In this document: positions 12,360 through 62,754 of the stretch, piece after piece
Layout: every line of letters starts with the position of its first letter
Numbering within the stretch: position 1 is the stretch's first letter
From: a virus
Virus record (IMG/VR): IMGVR_UViG_3300048997_000353
Coordinates: 44,442 to 108,441 of that record
DNA: 64,000 nucleotides
Strand: one strand, 5' to 3'
Notes under the pieces: model-generated
Told to the model about the DNA's origin: nothing
Database searches by the model: none
The model's input: the letters and a program-made list of their open reading frames with translations, nothing else
Made by a program: the position numbers and the translations under genes

Positions 12360-12434
12360 TGGAGCGCCTGGCGCGATTCGAACGCGCGACCCGCCTCTTT
12401 AGAGAAGGCTACTCTACCGCTGAGTTACAGGCGC
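12360..12434 (-). tRNA. Amber suppressor tRNA (anticodon CUA) with a Gly-like acceptor stem
   Basis: Cloverleaf GCGCCTG-TA-ACTC AGCGGTA GAGT-A-GCCTT CTCTAAA GAGGC-GGGTC-GCGCG TTCGAAT CGCGC-CAGGCGC-T-CCA. Confidence 0.9.
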
Positions 12435-12467: not shown

Positions 12468-12947
12468 TTATTCCAACGATTCGACCAAGCTGGTGCCCGG
12501 TCCGCACTCAAGCGCAGTGAGCTGCCGCCCACTACCGGGCAGAGAATTGGTGCGGACGGTAGGATTTTCACCCACACTTTCAGCTTTAGAGGCCGACGTG
12601 CCTGACACCGCGTCCGCAGTGTATTTCCAAAGTCGGTAGTTCTTCAGCGCCGCGCGCTGTTCCCCCGTGATCGGAGCCGTGGCAATCGCCGTAAATCCAA
12701 AGTTATTATCCGGTTCGGTCCAGAGGTAGTGCGGGATGTAGTTGGCTTGCAGCTTCGCCACGACGCGGCGCAAAGCGGCCACACCGGGCAGGCCGACGAC
12801 GATGATATTGGGAACGAGATCTTCGTTGGGGTGCTGGATGGCGGCGAGATGGAAAACTGCATGATTGGCTTGAACGATTTGGTGAGCGACAGGAATGTCC
12901 TGTCTAACGAAAACGTACACTGCATGGTCAGTGGGAATCTATGTCAT
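12468..12947 (-). CDS. PTH2-family peptidyl-tRNA hydrolase-like protein with an in-frame TAG at codon 3 (the ORF track starts it at GTG 12920)
   Basis: YVFVRQDIPVAHQIVQANHA...WTEPDNNFGFTAIA matches phage PTH2-like proteins; upstream reads ATG ACA TAG ATT CCC ACT GAC CAT GCA GTG TAC in frame. Confidence 0.75.
12491..12540 (-). ncRNA. Miniature tRNA-like element, 50 nt, ACCA end, no anticodon arm
   Basis: GCCCGGT/ACCGGGC 7-bp acceptor plus ACCA, enclosing hairpins GTGGGC-GGCA-GCTCAC and TGCGC-TTGA-GTGCG. Confidence 0.55.
12548..12617 (-). tRNA. Non-canonical 70-nt tRNA with CUA anticodon, reduced D arm and atypical T loop
   Basis: GCGGACG-CG-GTG TCAGG CAC-G-TCGGC CTCTAAA GCTGA-AAGT-GTGGG TGAAAAT CCTAC-CGTCCGC-A-CCA. 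Confidence 0.75.
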
Positions 12948-13992: not shown

Positions 13993-14044
13993 GAATTTTA
14001 ATGGGACGGTTGGTCACCAGTTATTCCCCGGCAGGGGTGACTCC

Positions 14045-14092
14045 ACGGTACGCCTTCACAAGCAGCGTTTCGTCTCACGACTCTTCAGCCGC
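14045..14092 (-). ncRNA. Type I hammerhead ribozyme
   Basis: Minus strand GCGG-CTGAAGA-GTC GTGA GAC-GAA-ACGCT...GGCGT-A-CCGT: full CUGANGA/GAAA core, stems I-III and a GUA cleavage triplet. Confidence 0.8.
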
Positions 14093-14168
14093 TAATAACG
14101 CCGGGCCAGATGTCAGCAAGACCGTCCCGTCGCTGACCCACGGATCGTACTGCAACATGCCTTAAATT

Positions 14169-14244
14169 TGGTGGACCTGACCGGCTATGATCCGGCTGCC
14201 TCCTGATTGCAAAACAGGCGCTCTCCCAATTGAGCTACAGGCCC
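14169..14244 (-). tRNA. tRNA-Ala(UGC)
   Basis: GGGCCTG/CAGGTCC acceptor with G3:U70 and A73; anticodon loop TTTGCAA; CCA end; atypical T loop ATCATAG. Confidence 0.9.
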
Positions 14245-20107: not shown

Positions 20108-20567
20108 TCCTCCAATTTTAATTCCATAGGTTCAGGAACACGAACACCCAATGTAACCGTAAGGCGCAAAATCACCCTGCGGAGAATGGCGTGCCCTGTA
20201 CTCCACTGGAAATTGTTTGTCCTCAGCAGGAACGAGCCCGTATGTGTTACCCAGAGAATCAGTCACGAACAAAACGGGATGATTCAACTTCACGCGGATC
20301 TGGTTGTCGACCGTGACCGCGTAAGGCAATGAAATCGAATAACACGTAGCATCCGTGGTTGTTACGTGCCATGTCATCCACTGTTTCAAGTTCATGTTTG
20401 CAGACTCCGTCCGACGGCCGCGATGACCTGTTTTTGAAGCATAGCCGTCAGTTCCGGGATGGGCACAAAAACGCCACTGCACGAATCTATTTTTGGCTCT
20501 GGCATAAATTTTGCGGCCAGTGCGCCGCTGAATATGCCAGCGAGGCGCGCGAACAAGGCCCGCCGGT

Positions 20568-20786
20568 TCATGTGGGCTCCTTTACGTCGGACTTGGGTTT
20601 CCCCTTCACGGCTTGCGGCCGCTCAATGAGATCGGCCAGGATGCCGATCGCTTCGAGGACGCGCAGTTGGCCGCGAACCATGTCGACCTGCAGATCCCGG
20701 TCATGCGTGCGCGGCATTGAGGAATTTTCCAACTTCGAGACTGTCTGCTGCTGTTGCTCGATCAGTTCTTGGATTGTTTCTGCCAT
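20568..20786 (-). CDS. Hypothetical protein immediately downstream of array A
   Basis: AAGGAG RBS before ATG 20786. Confidence 0.7.
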   Translation of the reverse strand: MAETIQELIEQQQQTVSKLENSSMPRTHDRDLQVDMVRGQLRVLEAIGILADLIERPQAVKGKPKSDVKEPT

Positions 20787-20815
20787 TTCTTAGAGCTCCT
20801 TTTTAGATTTGTACT

Positions 20816-21558
20816 GCCGCTAGCTTCAGTCCTGGTTTCGTCGTGTAATATCTAGTGATGCCGCCTCGTGCAGTCACGTGAAGTGTGGTGATGCCGCTGC
20901 ATCCTGTTTTGCCTGACTCAGTTTCGCCGTTAGATGGTGCCGACCGGCTCCGCTTTGTCGTGCCGCTAAGTCGAGTCCGAAATTGTCTCGTCATGTCATG
21001 CCGCTACATTTCGTTTCGTCCGGTTTGCAAATTGCCGCCCCCGCGATGCTGCGTGATGCGATGTCCTGTCAAGCCGCTCGGTCTGGCGGTGCGAAGTGGA
21101 ATCGAGTAACGCCGCTCTGTCCGGTCAGGTATGGTTCAGTGGGGTAAAGCCGTTTCGTTAAGTTTTGTCCTGTCACGAAATGTCCTATCAGGCCGCTGTG
21201 TTCAGTTCTGTTCTGTGGTGTCGCATACGGCCGCTGCATCGAATTTTGTAAGATTTAATCTGGCGTTGCCGCTCCGTGGGATCCAGTAGTATCAAGTAAA
21301 GTCTGGTCAAGCCGCTGTGTATTTGTCATGTCACGTCCAGTCGGGCCGCTCGGTCAAGTTGTGCCGTGTGCGGTCTAGCCCGGCCGCTCCGTGGAGTTCA
21401 GTTTCGTTCAATTGCGTCCTGCCGCTACGTGACGTAAAGTTCGGTGAAGTGGTGCCGCTGAGTCACGCTTGGTGAAGCGGTGCCGCTCCGTGGTGTCATG
21501 CCGCGCCTGGTTGAGCAATGCCGCTATGTGGTGTGGCGTGATGTTAAGTGACGCCGCT
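20816..21558 (-). repeat. Pentamer-periodic array A: 21 anchors, 20 unique units
   Basis: GCCGCT-type anchors (+ strand) at 20816, 20860, 20893, 20926, 20962, 21000, 21034, 21073, 21111, 21149, 21192, 21230, 21268, 21311, 21345, 21383, 21421, 21454, 21482, 21520, 21553. Example unit: GCCGCT CT GTC CG GTC AG GTA TG GTT CA GTG GG GTA AA. Strand inferred from flanking genes. Confidence 0.95.
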
Positions 21559-21577
21559 CGGTTTTTGGAAAATGAAT

Positions 21578-21742
21578 GGGAACCGCTGAACATTGGAGTA
21601 ACAGTCCAACTCTTTGCGGTTCCCCTTGAAACGGCCACGGCTCCGAGGCTAATCGCGGGTTGATCGTAAGCAGTTACGATGCTTCGTATCCCTATCGCCG
21701 TCCTCCGCCTATAGCTCCACTTGGTCACTAGGGCCGTTTCAA
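21578..21742 (-). ncRNA. Structured leader upstream of array A
   Basis: Stems GGGAACCGC/GCGGTTCCC (21578-21624) and TTGAAACGGCC/GGCCGTTTCAA (21626-21742) enclosing ATCGTAA/TTACGAT. Confidence 0.55.
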
Positions 21743-21930
21743 TTACCAATCTTGGCGCGGACAAAGCAGTCTTTTGCCTCAAGCAGTTTGCGGAGTCCAG
21801 CCGATTTCTCAGGCCCATCAGGAAGTTGCGCGTCCATCGAGCAGGCGAGCGCGAATACATCTCCGCTCACGCCCCTTAGGTGCTCTGGTAAGTGTGCGAA
21901 GTCGAAATATTTCATAATCGGTGATGGCAC
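21739..21930 (-). CDS. Small helical-hairpin phage protein, 63 aa (possibly Acb2/Tad1-like)
   Basis: GGAGG RBS plus GTG 21930; KYFDFAHLP...LPDGPEKSAGLRKLLEAKDCFVRA. Confidence 0.75.
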   Translation of the reverse strand: MPSPIMKYFDFAHLPEHLRGVSGDVFALACSMDAQLPDGPEKSAGLRKLLEAKDCFVRAKIGN

Positions 21931-21998
21931 AGTGTTCCTCCATTTCGAGTTGCGATTATAAGGGGCCGGATTCGGCGCTCCGGCCTGCGCTTCGTGAT

Positions 21999-22814
21999 TT
22001 AAGCCGTCGCCGCCTTGGCTGTTTCCGCGCCGTTCGCCTTGGCTGGTGCCTCGATCACTGGCTTCTCCCGCTTCTTCTGCCGGTCGCCCATCTCGATCTC
22101 GGCTTCGTCGACCCGGAAGCGGCCGCGGCCCAGCGATCGGCAACTGCCCAAACCGCACATCATAATCATCGCAGTGACGTCGGTAAGATCAACCTCCTTC
22201 ACGTTGGTGGTCAAGAATCGGAAGTTGAACGAAAATCTCGAGCCCGACGCCACACACTCGGAATGCTGGTAAATGCTCTTGGGTCCCTTCGGCGTATTCA
22301 CCGAACCCATGAACGCACTCCAATAAGTTTTGGCCGGGCCTGTCATGTCCTCGTTCAGCATGTACACCTTGTCCGGGGAATCAGCGTCGAGCAAACTAAA
22401 TCCATCGGCCAAGACGCGCGCTGCTTCCGAGAAATCACCCTTCGTTCCCCGCAGATCGGAAAATATTTTGAGACGCGATGCGGCCTGCTTTATGCAGGCC
22501 TGCACCATCCAGTTGCCGATATACGCTCCGCGCTCCGTGCGCCGGAGAGCGTTGACTCCATACACTTGCTCGGGCTGCAATTCCCCGGTTTCGCTCGGAA
22601 GTTCCTCCTGCCCAACCTCTTCGTGAAGGATTCTCTGGACAGCCTTCTCGGCATCATCGCCGGTCAGTTCCAAATGATGCTCCACGAACGCGCGAACACC
22701 ACGTTCATCCGCTGGTTGCCCGCCCACAAACTCGGTTACGAAAGTGGCTTGCACTTTCACAACTCCCGTTAGTTTCTGGTAAATCGCTTCTAGGTCTTTT
22801 GCGTTGAATTTCAT
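21999..22814 (-). CDS. Stand-alone Cas7-like RAMP protein, 271 aa
   Basis: AAAGGAG RBS plus ATG 22814; N-terminal beta strand with FVGG; central YIGNWMVQACIKQAA (equivalent to the RAMP IPGSSLKG-helix); SECVASGSRFSFNF; C-terminal Gly-rich loop GLGSCRSLGRGRF. Confidence 0.8.
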   Translation of the reverse strand: MKFNAKDLEAIYQKLTGVVKVQATFVTEFVGGQPADERGVRAFVEHHLELTGDDAEKAVQRILHEEVGQEELPSETGELQPEQVYGVNALRRTERGAYIGNWMVQACIKQAASRLKIFSDLRGTKGDFSEAARVLADGFSLLDADSPDKVYMLNEDMTGPAKTYWSAFMGSVNTPKGPKSIYQHSECVASGSRFSFNFRFLTTNVKEVDLTDVTAMIMMCGLGSCRSLGRGRFRVDEAEIEMGDRQKKREKPVIEAPAKANGAETAKAATA

Positions 22815-22870
22815 TTTCTGTTCTCCTTTGTGATCTGCGAACGAATCGATCATTGCTCGCTAGATTTCGT

Positions 22871-23621
22871 GCCGAAAAGTTTCGTTTTGCCGCTATGTGG
22901 TGTCCAGTAGCGTGTGGTCATGCCAAGTACAGTAGCGCCGCTCTGTGCGGTCGAGTAACTGTCGAATTGGGTCCGGTCTTGTCGTGCCGCTCTGTGACGT
23001 ATAGTAAAGTCTTGTCTTGTCCCGCCGCTCTGAACGGTTGAATGGAGTTGGGTGCCGCCGCTGGGTCGCATCGTGTAATGTTCTGTCATGCTTCGCGACG
23101 CCGCTGGATACTGCGATGTCGAGTGTAGTCGAGCCGTTGCGTGGAATATGGTGAAGTGGCGTACTGCCGCAGTAGTGCCACGCGCTGTCCAATGCGGAAT
23201 TGCCGCTCGGTCGAGTCCGGTGCAGTAGGGTCTTGTGGTATGGAGCCGCTGCGTAGAATCGAGTCCTGTGACATCATGGGTTGCCGTTTTATTCTGCTCG
23301 GTTTGGTCGAAGTCAAGTTTGCCGCTCCGTCATGCCGCTCTGTCGTGTCGAGTTCAATGGTGTGCGGTCGTGTAAAGTCCTGCCGCTCCGTGCTGCCAGG
23401 TTGTGTCGTGTGAGATGGGGTATAGCCGCTCTGTTGCATAGAGTTATGTTGTGTCCAGCCGCTCAGTCTTGTCGTGTCTGGGCATGTGGAGTTTGGCCGC
23501 TGTGTAAAGCTCAGTTCGAGTGCGCTTTGCCGCCTGCGTGATGCCGTGCGCGATGGTGTAATGCCGCTGAATCGGGTGCCAACTTGTGAAGTGCTGTCAA
23601 ATGGCATCTTGTCGAGCCGCT
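22871..23621 (-). repeat. Pentamer-periodic array B: 20 anchors plus one degenerate, 19 units
   Basis: Anchors at 22889, 22937, 22986, 23024, 23057, 23100, 23133, 23166, 23202, 23245, 23283, 23321, 23334, 23382, 23425, 23458, 23496, 23529, 23563, 23616, and degenerate GCCGAA at 22871. Example: GCCGCT CT GTG AC GTA TA GTA AA GTC TT GTC TT GTC CC. Confidence 0.95.
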
Positions 23622-23624
23622 AGA

Positions 23625-23957
23625 TTATTTCTTTCCGGTTGGAGTTCCGCAGTTCGAACAGAACTTCGCACCTGCGATTTGCGTGTTACAGGTTCCGCAG
23701 ATCAAGTCCTCCGGTGCAGGCCCCGAAATGAGACGGATCTCCTTCTCGGGCCGCTTACCGCGGTTTAATCGTTGGTTTTGAATCATCAAATCGCCAATTT
23801 TGCAAAATATTTTGGCATTGCCTTGTTTGATGCGCGCGACAGCTTCCGTCATGGAGCCATCGTCGATCCCTTCTCCGATCTGGTTGACCAGGGCCACAAC
23901 ATCCCCTAGATTTTCAACCTTGATTGTCTTTCTTGCCGCCGGCGGTTGGTCGGTCAT
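23625..23957 (-). CDS. Protein with a C-terminal zinc ribbon, 110 aa, between arrays B and C
   Basis: AAAGGAG RBS; CGTC...AKFCSNCG. Confidence 0.8.
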   Translation of the reverse strand: MTDQPPAARKTIKVENLGDVVALVNQIGEGIDDGSMTEAVARIKQGNAKIFCKIGDLMIQNQRLNRGKRPEKEIRLISGPAPEDLICGTCNTQIAGAKFCSNCGTPTGKK

Positions 23958-24016
23958 CTTTTCTCCTTTAAGAGTTTAGTTCTCTCGCATTTTTGGGCTT
24001 CGTTTTGTTTTGTGTT

Positions 24017-24540
24017 GCCGCTTTATCGAGTAGAGTCACGTACAGTGCTGTCGAGTAACGCCGCTGTGTCGCGTACCGTCGAGTCAGGTGACGGCCAGTA
24101 GCGCCGCTGAGTAAAGTCGAGTCGGATCGGGTCCCGTATTGCCGTTCCGTAAGGTCACGTTGGGTTGAGCCGCTGGGTAAAGTCCAGTCTTATCCCGTCG
24201 AGTCGCGGAGAATACTGCCGGGTCATGTGGCGCCGCTGCGTTGTGTAAGGTCAAGGATTGTCGGGTCGAGTGGGGAAAGGCCGCTCGGTGGTATAAAGTT
24301 GCGTGCAGTCGGAGCATGCCGCTGCGCAGAGCTGTGTGAGGGAATGTGGCAAATTGCCGTTCGGTGTGGATAGGTTTCGTCATGTCATGCCGCATTATCA
24401 AGTGGAGTCTGGTGGGATCGGGCCGCTTGTCTTGTTGAGTGCGGTGTCGGAGGGTCATGCCGCTATATTGAATTGGGTCGGGTCGGAGCATGGAAAGTGG
24501 GGCCGCTACGACTTGTGACGTTCTGGTTGGTATCGCCGCT
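24017..24540 (-). repeat. Pentamer-periodic array C: 14 anchors, 13 units, with partial units at both ends
   Basis: Anchors at 24017, 24060, 24103, 24141, 24169, 24232, 24280, 24318, 24356, 24389, 24422, 24459, 24502, 24535. Example: GCCGCT TT ATC GA GTA GA GTC AC GTA CA GTG CT GTC GA GTA AC. Confidence 0.95.
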
Positions 24541-24561
24541 TGGTAAAGGTTATGTGTTGAC

Positions 24562-24730
24562 TGACCTGTTACAAGGACACCCGCAAGGATTGGCGTGTGC
24601 CGACGCCTACGTTTTATGCCCCACTCCTGCGTTAATTCGCGACCTTGGCTAGTGTCAGTCGCTCTTACGAGCGGGTTTTCCCCAGCGGCAACCTGTGGAG
24701 CCTCCCTGTGGGTGCCCATGTAACAGGTCA
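24562..24730 (-). ncRNA. Multibranched structured RNA leader upstream of array C
   Basis: Perfect 12-bp closing stem TGACCTGTTACA/TGTAACAGGTCA, a further ~15-bp stem with G-U pairs on the minus strand, and internal hairpins such as CGCTC-GTAA-GAGCG. Confidence 0.65.
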
Positions 24731-24739
24731 ATCGTGTGT

Positions 24740-24880
24740 TCATATTTTCTTCTTCTTGGCTGCTGACTTAACAATGGACTCCAGGGTTTCGTACTGCCGC
24801 TTGCCCGCCATGGCGGCGAGAATCCGCAACAGCCGAAGCGTTTCTGGTGTGACTTTGGTGCTTACCAGAGGTTCCCGCAT
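24740..24880 (-). CDS. Ribbon-helix-helix-like regulator, 46 aa
   Basis: Below the ORF-track cutoff; MREPLVSTKVTPETLRLLRILAAMAGKRQYETLESIVKSAAKKKKI; AAGGAA RBS. Confidence 0.65.
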   Translation of the reverse strand: MREPLVSTKVTPETLRLLRILAAMAGKRQYETLESIVKSAAKKKKI

Positions 24881-25066
24881 TTATTTCCTTGGCGCGCGTG
24901 CCAAACCAATTTTGCGCTGGAGTGAACTAATATGAGATTGCGAGCAATCTAGAACGCTTGCAATCTCGGCCTGGGTAAATCCTTTGCGGCACAGTTCCCG
25001 CACTCGCTTATGAGTCACTGCAACCCTCCTGAGTTGTTCACTGTGGCTGTAGTAGGTTTTCCACAT
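24881..25066 (-). CDS. HTH DNA-binding protein
   Basis: KGFTQAEIASVLDCSQSHISSL; GGAG RBS. Confidence 0.75.
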   Translation of the reverse strand: MWKTYYSHSEQLRRVAVTHKRVRELCRKGFTQAEIASVLDCSQSHISSLQRKIGLARAPRK

Positions 25067-25133
25067 CTCCAAAATAACTAAGAGATTGTGCTGTAACCTT
25101 GTCACTTTTCGTTCGAGGGTCATGGAGGCAAGT

Positions 25134-25172
25134 GTTATACGCCTAGACGTAAAAAGAGTCAAATGCTATTAT
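25134..25172. promoter_or_regulatory. Overlapping divergent sigma70 promoters; the leftward one faces the RAMP/array locus
   Basis: Minus strand: TTGACT(25162-25157)-17-TATAAC(25139-25134). Plus strand: TAGACG(25144)-17-TATTAT(25167). Confidence 0.7.
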
Positions 25173-26506: not shown

Positions 26507-26932
26507 TTACTCGCATAATCCCAATTTTCGGATGGCCAGCTCGACATTGGCCGACGTGAGTCCCGTGGCCCATTTCGTGAGAACCAGGTGTCCCATGAGC
26601 GGCTCCATGCACTGATCATCGTCGAGGATGGCGAAGCGTTCGATCTCGAGCTTGGTTTCCAGTAGCCATTCGTGGATCTCGATCCCGCGCGCAAGGCCGT
26701 GAGGATAGCAGGTCTTGCCCATCACCGGAGCCGTCACGCCCCACTCGACAAGGATTTTCTCGATATCGTCGAACACGCGCCAGGTCGAGCTCACCACAAT
26801 CTGGGCGCCGGTCGCATGTGTGATTTGATTGAGCAGCTTGACCAGTTCGGGATCGGCCTTGCGCACGCCGTACTTGCGCGCGGACGCATTACTGATGAGC
26901 ACCCCGTCGATATCGAGAAATAGAATTTTCAC
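26507..26932 (-). CDS. HAD-superfamily protein (Swiss-Army-knife RNA-repair-like HAD)
   Basis: KILFLDIDGVL, IVVSSTWR, RGIEIHEWL, FAILDD. Confidence 0.85.
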   Translation of the reverse strand: MKILFLDIDGVLISNASARKYGVRKADPELVKLLNQITHATGAQIVVSSTWRVFDDIEKILVEWGVTAPVMGKTCYPHGLARGIEIHEWLLETKLEIERFAILDDDQCMEPLMGHLVLTKWATGLTSANVELAIRKLGLCE

Positions 26933-27362
26933 GGCATGAACACCTCTGGATGATGCAAGGCAACCACTCTTCTTTTGTGGCCACAGCGCAGACACTTGGT
27001 TCCATCCATGTCGTGCCTGATGAAATTGCCCACCGCACTCATGCACCTGCGTCGCTTGGCGCGAAACTGTGCTTTGCCGCCAGGCAGCGGCCGGCGAGCC
27101 TTTCTTGCAGCGATTGCCATACGTTCAACGTAGCGCATCATTCCTCCCGAAAGTTAGATCCACCGGCCGCGCGGGCCACGCGCAAACGCTTCCCATCTTC
27201 GGCGCTCCGCGACAGCCAAGGGCTCGTCATGATAAAACGCAAGCAATCCTCCACACTCCCCGCATTCCCAGCCCAACGCGGCAAAGCTGCCATGGAATTT
27301 CTGTTGCCATGTGTCGCACTGGCAGAAGCAACAAAGATGCCTGCGGCACTCTGTCCGGAACG

Positions 27363-33560: not shown

Positions 33561-33636
33561 GCTGCCGTAGCTCAATTGGTAGAGCCGACGATCTGTAATC
33601 GTCCTGTTTGGGGTTCAAGTCCTCACGGCAGCCCCA
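33561..33636 (+). tRNA. tRNA-Thr(UGU) with C at position 33
   Basis: GCTGCCG/CGGCAGC acceptor; GACGA TCTGTAA TCGTC anticodon arm; TTCAAGT T loop; CCA end. Confidence 0.85.
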
Positions 33637-39039: not shown

Positions 39040-39480
39040 GACTTAAGCCGGACGCCAGCAGGGACCGGAACAGGGGTTCAACGCATTAGATTCCAGAGCA
39101 AAGTTAGGATGTGGCCTTGAGCCGATGATTCCTACTAACTTCCGCGATGTGGCCCCGCGCCGAATTCGGGATGGTCCTCTGGAGTTGATTAGGTTCCTAC
39201 AGAATAGCTCTATGGTTTGTTGTCCTATCGCTGACCATAGTGAAGGAAAGCCAATTCCTCTACCTGTACACAATCCACGGACGAAAGAAGATGCCTAAGT
39301 CAGATGAAGCGCAATCGGATAGCGCGGAATTATCCGTCCGACGCGTAGAACGGTAAGTCTACGCCACAACAGATTTTGCAGATGGACTCCGGTCAGGACC
39401 GCCGAGAAAGCGGAACCCGCAGGCTACACGCTAGGCAAACCGGAGTTAATGCACACGGTCCGTCCAAAGTCGGACCAAAT
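39040..39480 (+). ncRNA. Candidate large structured RNA, about 440 nt
   Basis: No convincing ORF; stems AAGTTAG/CTAACTT, CTATGGT/ACCATAG, CGGATA/TATCCG, GCGTAGA/TCTACGC, ACTCCGG/CCGGAGT, GGTCCG/CGGACC. Confidence 0.45.
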
Positions 39481-50427: not shown

Positions 50428-50865
50428 ATGTCGTGGGAAACTGCAAAAGATAAGCTGATCTGTTTCATGCTGGTTGACGATTCCCTTGGCATAAAAGTGT
50501 GTGGACCCAGCGCCAAGGGAATCGCCTTCTGGCGAGCGTTCATTCTTGAGGATCGTCAAACCGGGGAAATCCATGCGGTTTGGCGATTCAAATATCCGGA
50601 CGGCAATACTAGCTGGACGGAAATCACATGCACGAACGGACTATCGGGGGACGCGGCAAAGAACCATCTGCGCTGTGCCCTTGAAGATGTAATCAACAAG
50701 GCCAATGACGTTTTTGGATTGCCGCAGAAGGTCGAGTGCTTCTATCCACCGGACGACGGCGGTGATCCAGGAAAAACTTTGCTGTGGCTCGACGAGCACG
50801 ACTTGATTGAATTCAGGGTTGAGAAAATCGATCCCAAGAAAGGAGATGGCGGACATGGATCGTGA
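50428..50865 (+). CDS. Hypothetical protein
   Basis: TAAGGAG RBS. Confidence 0.65.
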   Translation: MSWETAKDKLICFMLVDDSLGIKVCGPSAKGIAFWRAFILEDRQTGEIHAVWRFKYPDGNTSWTEITCTNGLSGDAAKNHLRCALEDVINKANDVFGLPQKVECFYPPDDGGDPGKTLLWLDEHDLIEFRVEKIDPKKGDGGHGS

Positions 50866-51067
50866 AGGAGACCAAACTACATGGCATATTCGCCTGTCTA
50901 GAAAAGTGGGTGATATTGAAGTGTGGAGATTATGGAAAGGAGACGAACCACAATCCAGCGAAATGCCTAAGTCTGTAGTTCAGAAATGGCTTGGTGAAGA
51001 GATTGCAAAAAAGACAGGCCTAGATTTCCCGCAGCACAAATCAAAACTAAAAAGGAGAATCGACCGC

Positions 51068-51832
51068 ATGACTCAGAAAAAGTATGTAATTCATCCTCTC
51101 GCATTGCTGTTCCCGGCTGTGGCGGGCAAGGCGTTCAACGATCTGGTCGCCGATATCAAGGCGCACGGCTTGCTGAATCCCATTGTCCGACAGGGCCACA
51201 CGATCATCGACGGCCGCACGCGCTTGGAAGCATGTAAGCAAGCGCGTGTGACGCCGAAGTTCGTGGAGTTTTCTTCGCTGGGCCAGAAGTGCACAGTCGA
51301 GAACTACATTTGGTCCTCGAATGTGGAACGCCGTCACCTGACCGAAGATCAGCGGGCCGTTGTGGCGCACGAATGGGCCAACGCGCTCGCGGAACAGGCT
51401 CGGGCCCGGCAAGTCGCGGCGCTCAAGAAGGGCAAGGTCGTGCAGATGAAATCAAAATCTGCAGGACCGGCAAAACCCAACGCGACCCGGCGTGCTGTGG
51501 CCGAACAGGGCCAGGTATCGGTGCATAAGATTCAACAGGTCGAAATGACCAAAAAGCATGCGCCCGAACTGGTCAAAAAGGTTGCTTCCGGAAAAATGAA
51601 GTTGAGGGACGCTGCGAAAATTGCGGCCAAGCGCATTCCCAAGCGCAAGGCGCAGCGGGCGCGGCTAATCGTCCATCCGCTCAGCACGCGCGCGGCGGTC
51701 GGAAAGGTGGTGGACAGCTTCGCAGCGGACGTGAAGAATATTTTGCCCAGAGTTACGGACCATGGCGCATTCTTCCGCTCGTTGCTCGACCACGTTGAAT
51801 CGTTCTGCAGAAAAATGAAGAAAGCGGCATAA
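51068..51832 (+). CDS. ParB-like N-terminal domain protein
   Basis: IHPLALLFP...LVADIKAHGLLNPI...IIDGRTRLEAC...NVERRHL. Confidence 0.85.
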   Translation: MTQKKYVIHPLALLFPAVAGKAFNDLVADIKAHGLLNPIVRQGHTIIDGRTRLEACKQARVTPKFVEFSSLGQKCTVENYIWSSNVERRHLTEDQRAVVAHEWANALAEQARARQVAALKKGKVVQMKSKSAGPAKPNATRRAVAEQGQVSVHKIQQVEMTKKHAPELVKKVASGKMKLRDAAKIAAKRIPKRKAQRARLIVHPLSTRAAVGKVVDSFAADVKNILPRVTDHGAFFRSLLDHVESFCRKMKKAA

Positions 51833-61080: not shown

Positions 61081-62754
61081 ATGACAGCGAGCACAGTGGT
61101 AGCAGTGCAACAACAACTGGAGAAAATCAGCCTGAACCAGATCAAGGAATCCACAACTAACCCACGAAAGCATTTCGAACCGAAGGCCATGGCTGAACTC
61201 GTGGCCAGCGTTACAGAGAAAGGCCTGATTGTCCCGCCATTGGTTCGTCCATTCCGCGATGGCCACTACGAAATCGTAGCCGGGGCGCGGCGGTTCCGCG
61301 CAGCCAAGCAAGCCAAACTTTCCGAGATTTTTTGCATCGTGCGAGAGCTCACGGACGACCAGGCGCTAGAGATCCAGGTCATTGAAAATCTACAGCGCGA
61401 AGATGTGCACCCACTGGAAGAAGCCGAAGGCTACAGACAGCTTCTCGATCGAGCCACACATGATTTCGCATCCCTTGCTGCCAAGGTCGGCAAATCAGAA
61501 AGCTACATCCACCAGCGGATTAAATTGCGCGACTTGATTGCTCCCGCCAAGAAAATGTTTCTCGAAGAGGCCCTGAGCCTGGGGCACGCGCAATTGCTCT
61601 GCCGGCTCCAAACCGCCCAGCAGAAGGAAGCAATCGCCTGGATCTCGCGCGGCGATTCTGTCCGTGGATTCAGGTCTGAAATTTACCGCCATTTCCATCT
61701 CCGGCTTAAGAACGCCGTGTTCAACACGGAAGATCCGCAACTGGTTCCGGCAGCCGGGGCGTGCGAGGATTGTCCGAAACGGACAGGTGCGAACCCGGGC
61801 CTGTTCTCGGAAATTAAGGAAGCCGACACGTGCACGGATCCATCCTGCTTCCAGCAGAAAGAAAACGCGTTCGTGAAAATCCAAGTTGGCACGCATCCTG
61901 ATGCCGAAATGGTGTCGATCGGACGGCGCTATCCAGAAGAGATTCGAGGGCTGTCTCCAGACCAATGGCTCCAAGCTGGCACGAAGAAGTGCGATTCAGT
62001 CTTGGAAGCCGTGATCGTGCAGAGTGGCGGCGAAGAAATTACCTATGGCGACAAAAAGGGACTTCGCCTGGGACAAGTTCTCTCGATTTGCAGGAACTCG
62101 AAGTGCCGTGTGCACCGCGAGGTATCCGACTACAATCCGAACACGGGCGGTAGCCGGAAAGCGGACAAGGCACGAAAGATCGAACTGCGGCGCCGGGGAC
62201 TTGTTTTTAAGGAACTCGCATCCGAGCCGTTCACGGTTGCAGAGAAGGACTACCGCGCCATCCTCGATCACATGATCGTCGGCCTCGGCCACGACCACGC
62301 TAAGGCTTTGTGTGACGCGATGGGATGGGACGTACCCAAATCCGAGACTGGACATGGACAACGCTCCTACGATGTTGTGGTCAAGGAAAAACTAGCCAAA
62401 CTTAGCCCAGAGGGGATCGAGCAATGGCTCTACCTACTCACACTCGCCGAAAGTGAGCTCTGGTTCTATACGTTCAGCAAAATTTCCTCCAAGCTGCTCG
62501 ACGCCAAAGCGAAAGCCACCGGCGTGCCGCTCGCAGCTATTGCGAAAGAGTCAAAACAACCTGTCCGGAAAGGGATAAAGGCCGGGACCTGCCGGCATTG
62601 CGGCTGCACCGAAAAACGAGCGTGTCGATATCAGGTCAAGACTAAAGACTTCAAGGGTCCTCGATCTTGCTCCTGGGTTGATGCGACAAAAACCGTTTGC
62701 AGTAATCCAATCTGCGTCAAGAAGGAGGCGTCTCGGAAGGCGAAGGCGGCATAA
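61081..62754 (+). CDS. ParB/RepB/Spo0J family partition protein with Cys-rich extensions
   Basis: NPRKHF...YEIVAGARRFRAA...IENLQRED, HTH, several CxxC. Confidence 0.9.
   Translation: MTASTVVAVQQQLEKISLNQIKESTTNPRKHFEPKAMAELVASVTEKGLIVPPLVRPFRDGHYEIVAGARRFRAAKQAKLSEIFCIVRELTDDQALEIQVIENLQREDVHPLEEAEGYRQLLDRATHDFASLAAKVGKSESYIHQRIKLRDLIAPAKKMFLEEALSLGHAQLLCRLQTAQQKEAIAWISRGDSVRGFRSEIYRHFHLRLKNAVFNTEDPQLVPAAGACEDCPKRTGANPGLFSEIKEADTCTDPSCFQQKENAFVKIQVGTHPDAEMVSIGRRYPEEIRGLSPDQWLQAGTKKCDSVLEAVIVQSGGEEITYGDKKGLRLGQVLSICRNSKCRVHREVSDYNPNTGGSRKADKARKIELRRRGLVFKELASEPFTVAEKDYRAILDHMIVGLGHDHAKALCDAMGWDVPKSETGHGQRSYDVVVKEKLAKLSPEGIEQWLYLLTLAESELWFYTFSKISSKLLDAKAKATGVPLAAIAKESKQPVRKGIKAGTCRHCGCTEKRACRYQVKTKDFKGPRSCSWVDATKTVCSNPICVKKEASRKAKAA

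What the first reader, a model, noticed from the sequence alone, without database searches (positions are those of the whole stretch)
20816..24540. Array unit lengths are quantised in steps of 5 nt (8+5n)
Manual anchor-to-anchor distances. A: 44,33,33,36,38,34,39,38,38,43,38,38,43,34,38,38,33,28,38,33. B: 48,49,38,33,43,33,33,36,43,38,38,13,48,43,33,38,33,34,53. C: 43,43,38,28,63,48,38,38,33,33,37,43,33. So 43 of 52 fit 8+5n, against about 1 in 5 by chance, and most exceptions are off by 1 nt. I saw no two identical units. Phase is conserved while content diverges, unlike a slippage microsatellite, and period 5 is not a codon signal. Inference: guides gain or lose whole protein footprints. Cas1-type capture would not interleave constant bases, so a different diversification route is implied.
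Basis: seen in the sequence. Interest (0 to 1): 0.85.

Follow-up and report, generated by a model that had tools for sequence, protein, structure and literature searches.

The report
Divergent phage VIPR guide-RNA arrays
The 5-base length steps are real: the three arrays are guide-RNA genes of a VIPR system (a CRISPR-like phage DNA silencer first described in 2026) in which one Cas7-like subunit covers each 5-base repeat; this soil phage's version uses other fixed letters and a 6-base punctuation mark, and one guide spells its own protein gene perfectly.

Summary
Observation confirmed. The same rule holds in about 33 related metagenomic loci (420 of 567 distances).

On the gene-sense (minus) strand each unit reads AGC | GGC-NN | (x-R-Y-NN)k. 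Y is always a pyrimidine, R is mostly A, and NN is free.

The 271-aa gene between arrays A and B has a Cas7/Csm3 fold (Z 12). Its G-loop region is homologous to Vipr of phage SUSP1.

This matches the VIPR systems of 2026 preprints: one protomer per pentamer, fixed trinucleotide held by protein, and NN pairing with DNA under a read-2-skip-1 code.

In near-identical arrays, substitutions concentrate at variable positions. Units are duplicated, lost or replaced whole.

New detail: the guide nearest vipr matches the phage's own vipr 18/18 under the skip-1 code. It lies in wobble phase on the most conserved motif (genome-wide E about 1e-5), which suggests autoregulation. Other targets were not found.

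It is a variant of a known kind. Non-GGY motifs are already in print, and this scan holds over 500 earlier VIPR notes on other DNA. No RNA data exist.

The parts
24017..24545 (-). Array C, first in the sense direction: 14 anchor-delimited units of 28-63 nt
   Evidence: Parse; sense-strand pentamer layout
22889..23625 (-). Array B, directly upstream of vipr: about 20 units of 13-53 nt
20816..21590 (-). Array A, downstream of vipr and the 63-aa gene: about 21 units of 28-44 nt
21999..22814 (-). vipr-like gene, 271 aa: a stand-alone Cas7-like RAMP with the G-loop GLGSxRSLGRGRF and a basic C-terminal tail
   Evidence: No Pfam or PHROG hit. AF2 model pLDDT 84. Foldseek hits Csm3/Cmr4/type VII Cas7 at E 8e-7. 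VIA Z 12.5-10.4 over residues 8-248. hhalign to the SUSP1-type Vipr profile gives prob 88.5%, E 2.7e-6 over 53 columns. Bridging HMM hits.
22895..22942 (-). Self-matching guide unit, the last complete unit before vipr. Its nine dinucleotides are GC TG TT AT CA GC TG AC AT.
22483..22508 (+). Predicted target of that guide inside vipr (codons 103-111, MVQACIKQA). It matches 18/18 under the NNx code, with the skipped base at the codon wobble position.
   Evidence: genome-wide E 1.3e-5; the only hit among 30 strand/register/skip combinations; 0 of 1500 shuffles reach 18. Alignment.
23625..23957 (-). 110-aa gene with a C-terminal zinc ribbon between arrays C and B; candidate accessory (vap-like) gene
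   Evidence: Weak Zn-ribbon Pfam hits. A Zn-ribbon small protein lies just upstream of vipr in 7 related loci, and one of them is weakly similar to this gene.
21739..21930 (-). 63-aa gene directly after vipr; function unknown and its role in the system unproven
   Evidence: phrog_1761 at E 2e-28, unknown function. Not conserved next to vipr in relatives.
24559..24733 (-). Very stable 175-nt multibranch hairpin directly 5' of array C; a possible leader, with no established link to the system
   Evidence: MFE -90.5 kcal/mol, z -7.1 on the minus strand against -79.1, z -4.0 on the plus strand. No Rfam match.

Best explanation
The three arrays are multi-guide vrRNA genes of a divergent VIPR system carried by a tailed soil phage.

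They are read on the minus strand, the strand of all neighbouring genes. Each unit is AGC, then a canonical GGC-NN pentamer, then k pentamers x-R-Y-NN. That gives length 3+5m = 8+5k.

By homology with solved Vipr filaments, one copy of the 271-aa Cas7-like protein binds each pentamer. The protein holds the fixed trinucleotide and presents the two free bases. The free dinucleotides then pair with DNA in a read-2-skip-1 code (3 bp per pentamer).

Unit length can therefore change only by whole protomer footprints of 5 nt. The AGC|GGC junction is a repeat that lacks its NN, so it breaks the register and marks where one guide ends and the next begins.

Most guides presumably silence competing mobile elements. 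The guide next to vipr matches vipr itself perfectly and most likely feeds back on vipr expression.

Shown here: the periodic anatomy and its conservation, the RAMP fold and Vipr homology, the substitution pattern, and the code-consistent self match.

Inferred: transcription, processing at the anchors, filament formation, DNA binding, silencing and autoregulation.
For: 1. Anatomy. 43 of 52 unit lengths are 8+5n. In 428 in-phase units from about 33 loci, the sense strand reads A-G-C-G-G-C then N N, then x (G 40%), R (A 70 / G 20), Y (C 90 / T 9, purine 1% or less), N, N, repeated to the unit end.

2. Association. An array lies directly beside the homologous gene, on the same strand, in about 33 of 43 loci at 33-54% protein identity. 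Vipr is the only conserved neighbour.

3. Protein. It has a Cas7/Csm3 fold. Its top BFVD matches are phage stand-alone RAMPs. Its profile aligns with the SUSP1-type Vipr profile over the strand-helix-G-loop-strand region (prob 88.5%, E 2.7e-6). Intermediate proteins are hit by both profiles. The G-loop residues that read G1 and G2 in SUSP1 Vipr (D177, W178; paper read) are Ser and a small residue here, which fits the loss of G-G.

4. Published mechanism. One protomer binds one pentamer, the Y pocket excludes purines, and NN pairs under a 1-nt skip rule. SUSP1 vrRNAs lie sense to vipr.

5. Code test. One window guide matches its own phage 18/18 only in register 0 with skip 1. The match runs exactly from the first to the last NN of the unit and is in wobble phase. 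In L031 the equivalent last upstream unit hits the same vipr motif.

6. Evolution. Constant positions change 3.4 times less than variable ones. Whole units are duplicated, lost or replaced.

7. Composition. NN dinucleotide usage fits codon positions 1-2 better than other phases (modest).
Against: - No RNA data exist, so neither the transcribed strand nor processing at AGCGGC is observed.
- The target test cannot tell the two strands apart. The strand call rests on the strict Y position, the weak G at x, co-orientation with vipr and a more stable minus-strand leader fold.
- Sequence similarity to canonical Vipr is confined to about 50 C-terminal columns.
- Guides are short: 6-9 pentamers here and 4-6 in many relatives, against 9-16 in the characterised systems. 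That gives only 10-18 specified bases, and it is unclear whether this is specific enough.
- No conserved structured 3' tail is present.
- Apart from the self match, no target was found above chance.
- Pooled over all 320-393 family guides, there is no enrichment of matches to vipr genes.
Confidence: 0.85

Rival explanations
1. The same VIPR-like system, but the guides are transcribed from the plus strand, antisense to the genes. The pentamer would then be R-T-x/NN and the anchor GCCGCT.
For: The published non-canonical motif list includes WGT/NN, and the plus strand here reads W(60%)-G-T. The skip-1 self match is symmetric and fits either strand.
Against: The register fixed by the self match puts NN directly after the pyrimidine on the minus strand, as in GGY/NN. 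On the plus strand the fixed trinucleotide would be G-T-x with an unconstrained third base. The minus-strand Y is 100% pyrimidine in 254 pentamers, matching the purine-excluding pocket. Arrays are co-oriented with vipr in all loci, as in SUSP1. All genes from 17 to 29 kb are on the minus strand.
Confidence: 0.07
2. The arrays make a non-targeting RNA scaffold or decoy. The RNA would load the phage RAMP, or soak up host Cas7-type proteins, without guiding anything.
For: Phage RNA anti-CRISPRs that mimic repeats are known (my own knowledge). Most guides have no identifiable target.
Against: A decoy needs only the fixed letters. Here the free dinucleotides are hypervariable between units and turn over by whole units. 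One unit also spells a 26-bp site of the phage perfectly in the published code, and in codon phase.
Confidence: 0.04
3. The arrays act as double-stranded DNA: iteron, centromere-like or primase-site arrays bound by a DNA-binding protein such as the nearby RHH, HTH or Zn-ribbon proteins.
For: Small DNA-binding proteins flank the arrays. NNGTC-type pentamers resemble T7-class primase recognition sites (my own knowledge).
Against: A 5-bp period is half a helical turn. The pattern is strongly strand-asymmetric. The only conserved neighbour across about 33 loci is an RNA-binding RAMP, not the RHH, HTH or Zn-ribbon genes. The fifth pentamer base is C in only 39%. This reading does not explain the skip-1 self match.
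Confidence: 0.03

Closest known systems
Type II VIPR of Escherichia phage SUSP1 and a Pseudomonas fulva prophage (bioRxiv 10.64898/2026.04.26.720920, .720927 and 10.64898/2026.10.15.759431)
   Same: Phage-borne stand-alone RAMP flanked by non-coding arrays on its own strand. 5-nt repeats with a fixed trinucleotide ending in a pyrimidine and two free bases. The read-2-skip-1 code fits. Guides against vipr genes are reported there too.
   Different: The fixed letters are x-A-Y here, not G-G-Y. The protein is 271 aa, not about 195 aa, and is alignable only around the G-loop. About 55 guides of 6-9 pentamers sit in three dense arrays, against four vrRNAs of 9-16 pentamers. There is no roughly 40-nt pseudoknotted 3' tail; units are separated only by AGCGGC. 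One guide matches the phage's own contig perfectly, whereas that paper found no self hits at 80% or more.
Non-canonical VIPR-like clusters (GAC/NN, CAC/NN, WGT/NN, TGH/NN) in bioRxiv 10.64898/2026.10.21.760802
   Same: Period-5 arrays beside Vipr-like folds with fixed trinucleotides other than GGY. GAC/CAC (minus strand) or WGT (plus strand) describes the pentamers here.
   Different: That text gives motifs only (read). It does not mention anchor punctuation, quantised unit lengths, targets or self-matching. I could not check whether this family is one of their 21 clusters.
'Staggered' vrRNA arrays (legend of fig. S18, bioRxiv 10.64898/2026.04.26.720920)
   Same: [quoted passage not shown]
   Different: Only the legend is held, and it describes 1-nt overlaps. 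Neither the figure nor the sequences could be compared, so identity with the AGCGGC-punctuated layout is open.
Class 1 CRISPR-Cas backbone (Cas7/Csm3/Cmr4 on crRNA)
   Same: RAMP fold with G-loop and thumb. The protein polymerises on a guide with a fixed footprint. An 8-nt constant part per unit recalls the 8-nt 5' handle.
   Different: The period is 5 nt, not 6. Two to three letters of every footprint are fixed. Repeats are 6 nt. Pfam and PHROG scans of the ten ORFs flanking the arrays found no Cas1, Cas2, Cas6, Cas5 or large subunit. The guide is read discontinuously.

Membership tests
VIPR (Vipr + vrRNA), broad sense | Stand-alone RAMP protein with RRM core, G-loop and thumb, outside a CRISPR-cas locus | tested here: met
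   AF2 model pLDDT 84. Foldseek hits Csm3/Cmr4/type VII Cas7 at E 8e-7. VIA Z 12.5, rmsd 4.3, 170 residues aligned. The G-loop GLGSxKSLERGKF is conserved. Neighbouring ORFs have no Cas families.
VIPR (Vipr + vrRNA), broad sense | Sequence homology of the protein to described Vipr proteins | tested here: met
   The match is partial. hhalign of A1 against the SUSP1-type alignment A2 gives prob 88.5%, E 2.7e-6 over 53 C-terminal columns. The A2 HMM hits intermediates and members of the A1 family at 2e-7 to 1e-3, and the A1 HMM hits one canonical member at 4e-6, in small local databases. The single-sequence comparison was insignificant.
VIPR (Vipr + vrRNA), broad sense | Tandem pentanucleotide repeats: a fixed trinucleotide ending in a pyrimidine alternating with a hypervariable NN | tested here: met
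   x-R-Y/NN on the sense strand, with Y at least 99% pyrimidine and NN at 0.00-0.03 bit. The consensus is x-A-Y, not G-G-Y, so this is a 'related consensus'.
VIPR (Vipr + vrRNA), broad sense | NN dinucleotides specify DNA with one skipped base per repeat | tested here: met
   Tested in silico only. One guide matches 18/18 with skip 1 and nothing with skip 0 or 2. The skipped base is at the wobble position. Binding itself cannot be tested here.
VIPR (Vipr + vrRNA), broad sense | Arrays are transcribed into small RNAs that co-purify with the protein | not testable with these tools
   No RNA run was available to test this.
VIPR type II (SUSP1-like) | Each vrRNA has 9-16 GGY/NN repeats capped by a conserved structured 3' tail of about 40 nt | tested here: not met
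   Units have 2-12 pentamers, mostly 6-8, and are separated only by AGCGGC. SUSP1 vrRNAs with their tails were read for comparison.
CRISPR-Cas, class 1 | Direct repeats of about 23-50 nt alternating with unconstrained spacers; 6-nt Cas7 periodicity; adaptation and processing genes | tested here: not met
   The repeat is 6 nt, the 'spacers' carry fixed letters every 5 nt, and no such array is called by TRF. Flanking ORFs have no Cas families.

The most novel reading that the evidence does not exclude
This may be a VIPR architecture not among the seven described types. It has tail-less, polycistronic arrays in which guides are delimited only by a repeat that lacks its NN (AGC directly followed by GGC). 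It uses x-A-Y instead of G-G-Y. It also has a dedicated guide, placed immediately upstream of vipr, that matches the phage's own vipr perfectly and sets Vipr levels by negative feedback. That contrasts with the 'rival-targeting with self escape' pattern seen in L031 and in earlier notes of this scan.
Probability: 0.3. Interest if true: 0.6.

Novelty: new variant of a known kind. Interest (0 to 1): 0.45.

Why it matters
The finding explains a striking raw-sequence regularity by a mechanism that has only just been described, and it extends that mechanism in five ways.

- The read-2-skip-1 code appears to hold in a family whose protein shares only the G-loop region with the characterised Vipr and whose fixed letters differ.
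- The residues that read G1 and G2 in SUSP1 Vipr are replaced here. That gives a natural pairing of protein change with RNA-motif change, useful for re-engineering scaffold specificity.
- The AGCGGC punctuation suggests a very compact way to encode dozens of guides (about 55 in 2 kb) without tails or ribozymes.
- A perfect self-match on vipr would be a simple autoregulatory circuit, testable with a reporter.
- The roughly 555 cluster representatives found by the profile show that the family is common in soil, peat and groundwater viromes.

Tried and rejected
- The Vipr-like protein found nothing in GenBank phages by tblastn. The single-sequence scan of IMG/VR found nothing. The profile found one IMG/VR locus and one MAG contig.
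- Rfam has no family in the locus.
- Six guides were scanned as NNx patterns against IMG/VR. The 24- and 20-letter guides gave 0 hits. Two 18-letter guides gave 1 hit each. Two 16-letter guides gave 29 hits each. These counts are what chance gives in about 60 Gb.
- Seed-and-confirm on those 60 loci gave only marginal second hits: two guides on one 37%-GC phage (L101 = L105), and several weak wobble-phased hits in a repetitive tape-measure gene in L073. I count these as inconclusive.
- Pooled over all family guides, matches to vipr genes are not enriched. Only three self hits stand out. One of them, window guide 21192 on vipr 22703-22722 at 13/14, is not in wobble phase and may be chance.
- A tracrRNA-like anti-anchor idea was dropped. 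GCCGCU does occur in the 175-nt hairpin, but GCCGCT is not enriched near arrays in relatives.
- No sigma-70-like promoter or terminator excess was found on either strand.
- The neighbouring small genes (RHH, HTH, 63 aa, 72 aa) are not conserved beside vipr in relatives.
- No RNA holder was listed among public runs.
- SUSP1 Vipr could not be folded here because the tool refuses proteins from annotated records.
Full report
**Observation**

I read 20500-24900 and scripted the parse. With the anchor GCCG[CT]N, the three arrays are A 20816-21590, B 22889-23625 and C 24017-24545. 43 of 52 distances equal 8+5n (binomial p 2e-21).

Inside in-phase units, the plus strand reads GCCGCT, then (N N R T N)k, then N N. 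Position 3 is G 83% / A 17% and never a pyrimidine. Position 4 is T 83%. The other three positions are essentially free.

No two units are alike; the best same-length pair is 63% identical. The arrays are confined to this locus of the 108-kb contig. The contig is a tailed phage with portal and large terminase genes, and the only public run that holds the stretch (possibly its source) is a soil metagenome.

**Context and strand**

All genes from 17 to 29 kb lie on the minus strand. In the sense direction the order is:

1. a 46-aa RHH-like gene and a 93-aa HTH gene
2. a very stable 175-nt hairpin
3. array C
4. a 110-aa zinc-ribbon gene
5. array B
6. a 271-aa gene
7. a 63-aa gene
8. array A

The 271-aa protein has no Pfam or PHROG family. 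It has 61 homologues by word search and 555 cluster representatives by profile, all unnamed.

**The protein**

An AlphaFold model built on the family alignment (pLDDT 84) matches Csm3, Cmr4 and type VII Cas7. Foldseek gives E 8e-7. VIA gives Z 12.5 to 10.4 over residues 8-248. In the viral library its best matches are stand-alone phage RAMPs.

**Conservation of the module**

I fetched 43 metagenomic or viral loci and one MAG contig that encode homologues at 33-54% identity. In about 33 of them an array of [A/G/T]GCGGC anchors lies directly beside the gene on the gene's strand. 420 of 567 anchor distances are 3 mod 5.

No other gene is conserved beside it. A small zinc-ribbon protein recurs in 7 loci.

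Pooling 428 in-phase units, the sense strand reads A-G-C-G-G-C, N N, then x (G 40%), R (A 70%, G 20%), Y (C 90%, T 9%, purine 1% or less), N N, repeated to the end of the unit.

The anchor can therefore be read as AGC, an x-R-Y with no NN after it, followed by a canonical GGC-NN pentamer.

**What it is**

A literature search led to the VIPR preprints. I read the following:

- *Discovery paper* (10.64898/2026.04.26.720920). It describes phage-borne stand-alone RAMPs (Vipr) with vrRNAs made of GGY/NN pentamers whose NN letters pair with DNA under a 1-nt skip rule. It lists seven types, 'related' consensus motifs, staggered arrays and ribozyme-interspersed arrays.
- *Structure paper* (.720927). 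One protomer binds one repeat. G1 is read by D177, G2 is stacked on W178, and Y3 sits in a pocket that excludes purines. NN is exposed and the target base at the skip is flipped out.
- *Language-model survey* (10.64898/2026.10.21.760802). It lists non-canonical fixed trinucleotides beside Vipr-like folds: GAC, CAC, WGT and TGH.

I fetched phage SUSP1 (KT454805) and confirmed that its GGY/NN tracts, with their tails, lie on the vipr strand.

Homology tests between the two protein families gave these results:

- The window family profile against a profile of SUSP1-type Vipr homologues aligns over the last strand, helix, G-loop and strand (hhalign prob 88.5%, E 2.7e-6).
- Proteins that match the window family's profile at library-wide E of about 1e-22 to 1e-27 are also hit by the canonical Vipr HMM at 2e-7 to 4e-5.
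- In that alignment D177 and W178 of SUSP1 Vipr correspond to an invariant Ser and a small residue here. That agrees with the loss of the two G's from the RNA motif. This last point is an inference.

**Code test**

I decoded each sense-strand unit into its NN dinucleotides and searched the phage genome and all fetched loci, with arrays masked, under skip 0, 1 and 2, using shuffled-order controls.

One hit stands far above chance. The unit at 22895-22942 is the last complete unit before vipr. Its dinucleotides are GC TG TT AT CA GC TG AC AT. It matches plus-strand 22483-22508 at 18 of 18 letters with skip 1.

- Genome-wide E is 1.3e-5, and 0 of 1500 shuffles reach 18.
- Of 30 strand/register/skip combinations, only register 0 with skip 1 finds it. 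The mirror reading on the other strand is the same test.
- The site is the antisense of vipr codons 103-111 (MVQACIKQA), the most conserved motif of the family.
- Every skipped base is a codon third position.
- The match starts at the first NN after GGC and ends at the last NN before AGC. It does not extend into the neighbouring unit, as read from the sequence.

This supports three points: the register, the unit as the guide, and the anchor as punctuation.

In L031 (49% identical protein) the positionally equivalent last upstream unit hits the same motif two codons further upstream. It matches its own gene at 14/16 and the L034 gene at 15/16. One self mismatch is a Leu TTA versus CTN switch. 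That is the 'aimed at relatives, self escapes' pattern already in print and in earlier notes of this scan. The window's guide is instead perfect on self, which is why I favour autoregulation here. This is inference.

**Evolution of arrays**

I compared four near-identical pairs (L001/L014, L020/L024, L039/L040, L004/L005). Substitutions per aligned site by position class were:

| Position class | Substitutions per site |
|---|---|
| Y | 0.9% |
| Anchor | 2.0% |
| R | 2.3% |
| N4 | 3.8% |
| N5 | 6.8% |
| x | 6.9% |

Constant versus variable positions give Fisher p 4e-7.

The differences include a clean 38-nt deletion between duplicated units, a 10-nt deletion, several 5-nt indels, some 1-nt indels, and whole units replaced by unrelated ones. 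Blocks of units are shared in different order among L020, L021, L023 and L024.

So arrays diversify by unit duplication, shuffling, replacement and point change at the free letters. No Cas1-like gene is in the neighbourhood.

**Limits**

- No RNA data exist.
- The strand call is indirect. It rests on the strict pyrimidine, the NN position directly after it, co-orientation with vipr, and a leader hairpin that is more stable on the minus strand.
- Natural targets other than vipr were not found. IMG/VR pattern scans returned chance-level counts and second-guide confirmation was marginal.
- NN usage fits codon positions 1-2 best, but only modestly.
- Guides are short, so specificity is an open question.
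- I could not see figs S17-S18 or data S4 of the discovery paper, so I cannot say whether this architecture is already one of the seven types.

**Verdict**

The system is a divergent member of the VIPR class, known since April 2026. This scan already holds 537 VIPR notes from at least 366 genomes.

The variant features are x-A-Y fixed letters, tail-less AGCGGC-punctuated arrays with about 55 short guides, and a perfectly self-matching guide on vipr.

Noticed in passing
window 24559-24733 (-): A 175-nt multibranch hairpin with a roughly 30-bp closing stem lies directly 5' of array C. MFE is -90.5 kcal/mol (z -7.1) on the minus strand and -79.1 (z -4.0) on the plus strand. It has no Rfam match. 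It contains one GCCGCU, the complement of the anchor, but that hexamer is not enriched near arrays in relatives.
   Followed up: partly
window 39377-39474 (+): Type-P5 twister ribozyme match (Rfam RF02684, 39.5 bits against a gathering score of 37.6).
   Followed up: no
window 12363-12434 (-), 12551-12617 (-), 14172-14244 (-), 33561-33633 (+): Four tRNA genes in the phage. Unchecked earlier notes of this scan mention CUA-anticodon tRNAs and a hammerhead near 14003-14168.
   Followed up: no
window 26507-27046 (-): 179-aa protein with a HAD_SAK_2 domain, the HAD domain of 'Swiss army knife' RNA-repair proteins (Pfam E 5e-25).
   Followed up: no
window 24743-25162 (-): A 46-aa protein with an RHH-like sequence pattern (judged by eye; no family hit) and a 93-aa HTH protein (sigma-70 region 4-like, E 4e-5) sit just upstream of the hairpin and array C. 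They are not conserved beside vipr in relatives.
   Followed up: partly
L031 6614-6657 and L034 8298-8320: In L031 the last guide before vipr matches the vipr of another phage (L034) better than its own: 15/16 against 14/16. One self mismatch is a synonymous Leu TTA/CTN switch. This looks like system-against-system targeting with self escape.
   Followed up: partly
L001 2501-2957 vs L014 1163-1581: A 38-nt unit is present twice in tandem in one phage and once in its near-identical relative. The paralogous units differ only in a few pentamers, a direct trace of guide birth by unit duplication.
   Followed up: yes
window 61081-62754 (+) and 50807-51832 (+): Two ParB-like nuclease-domain proteins in the phage (PHROG E 2e-38 and 2e-9).
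   Followed up: no
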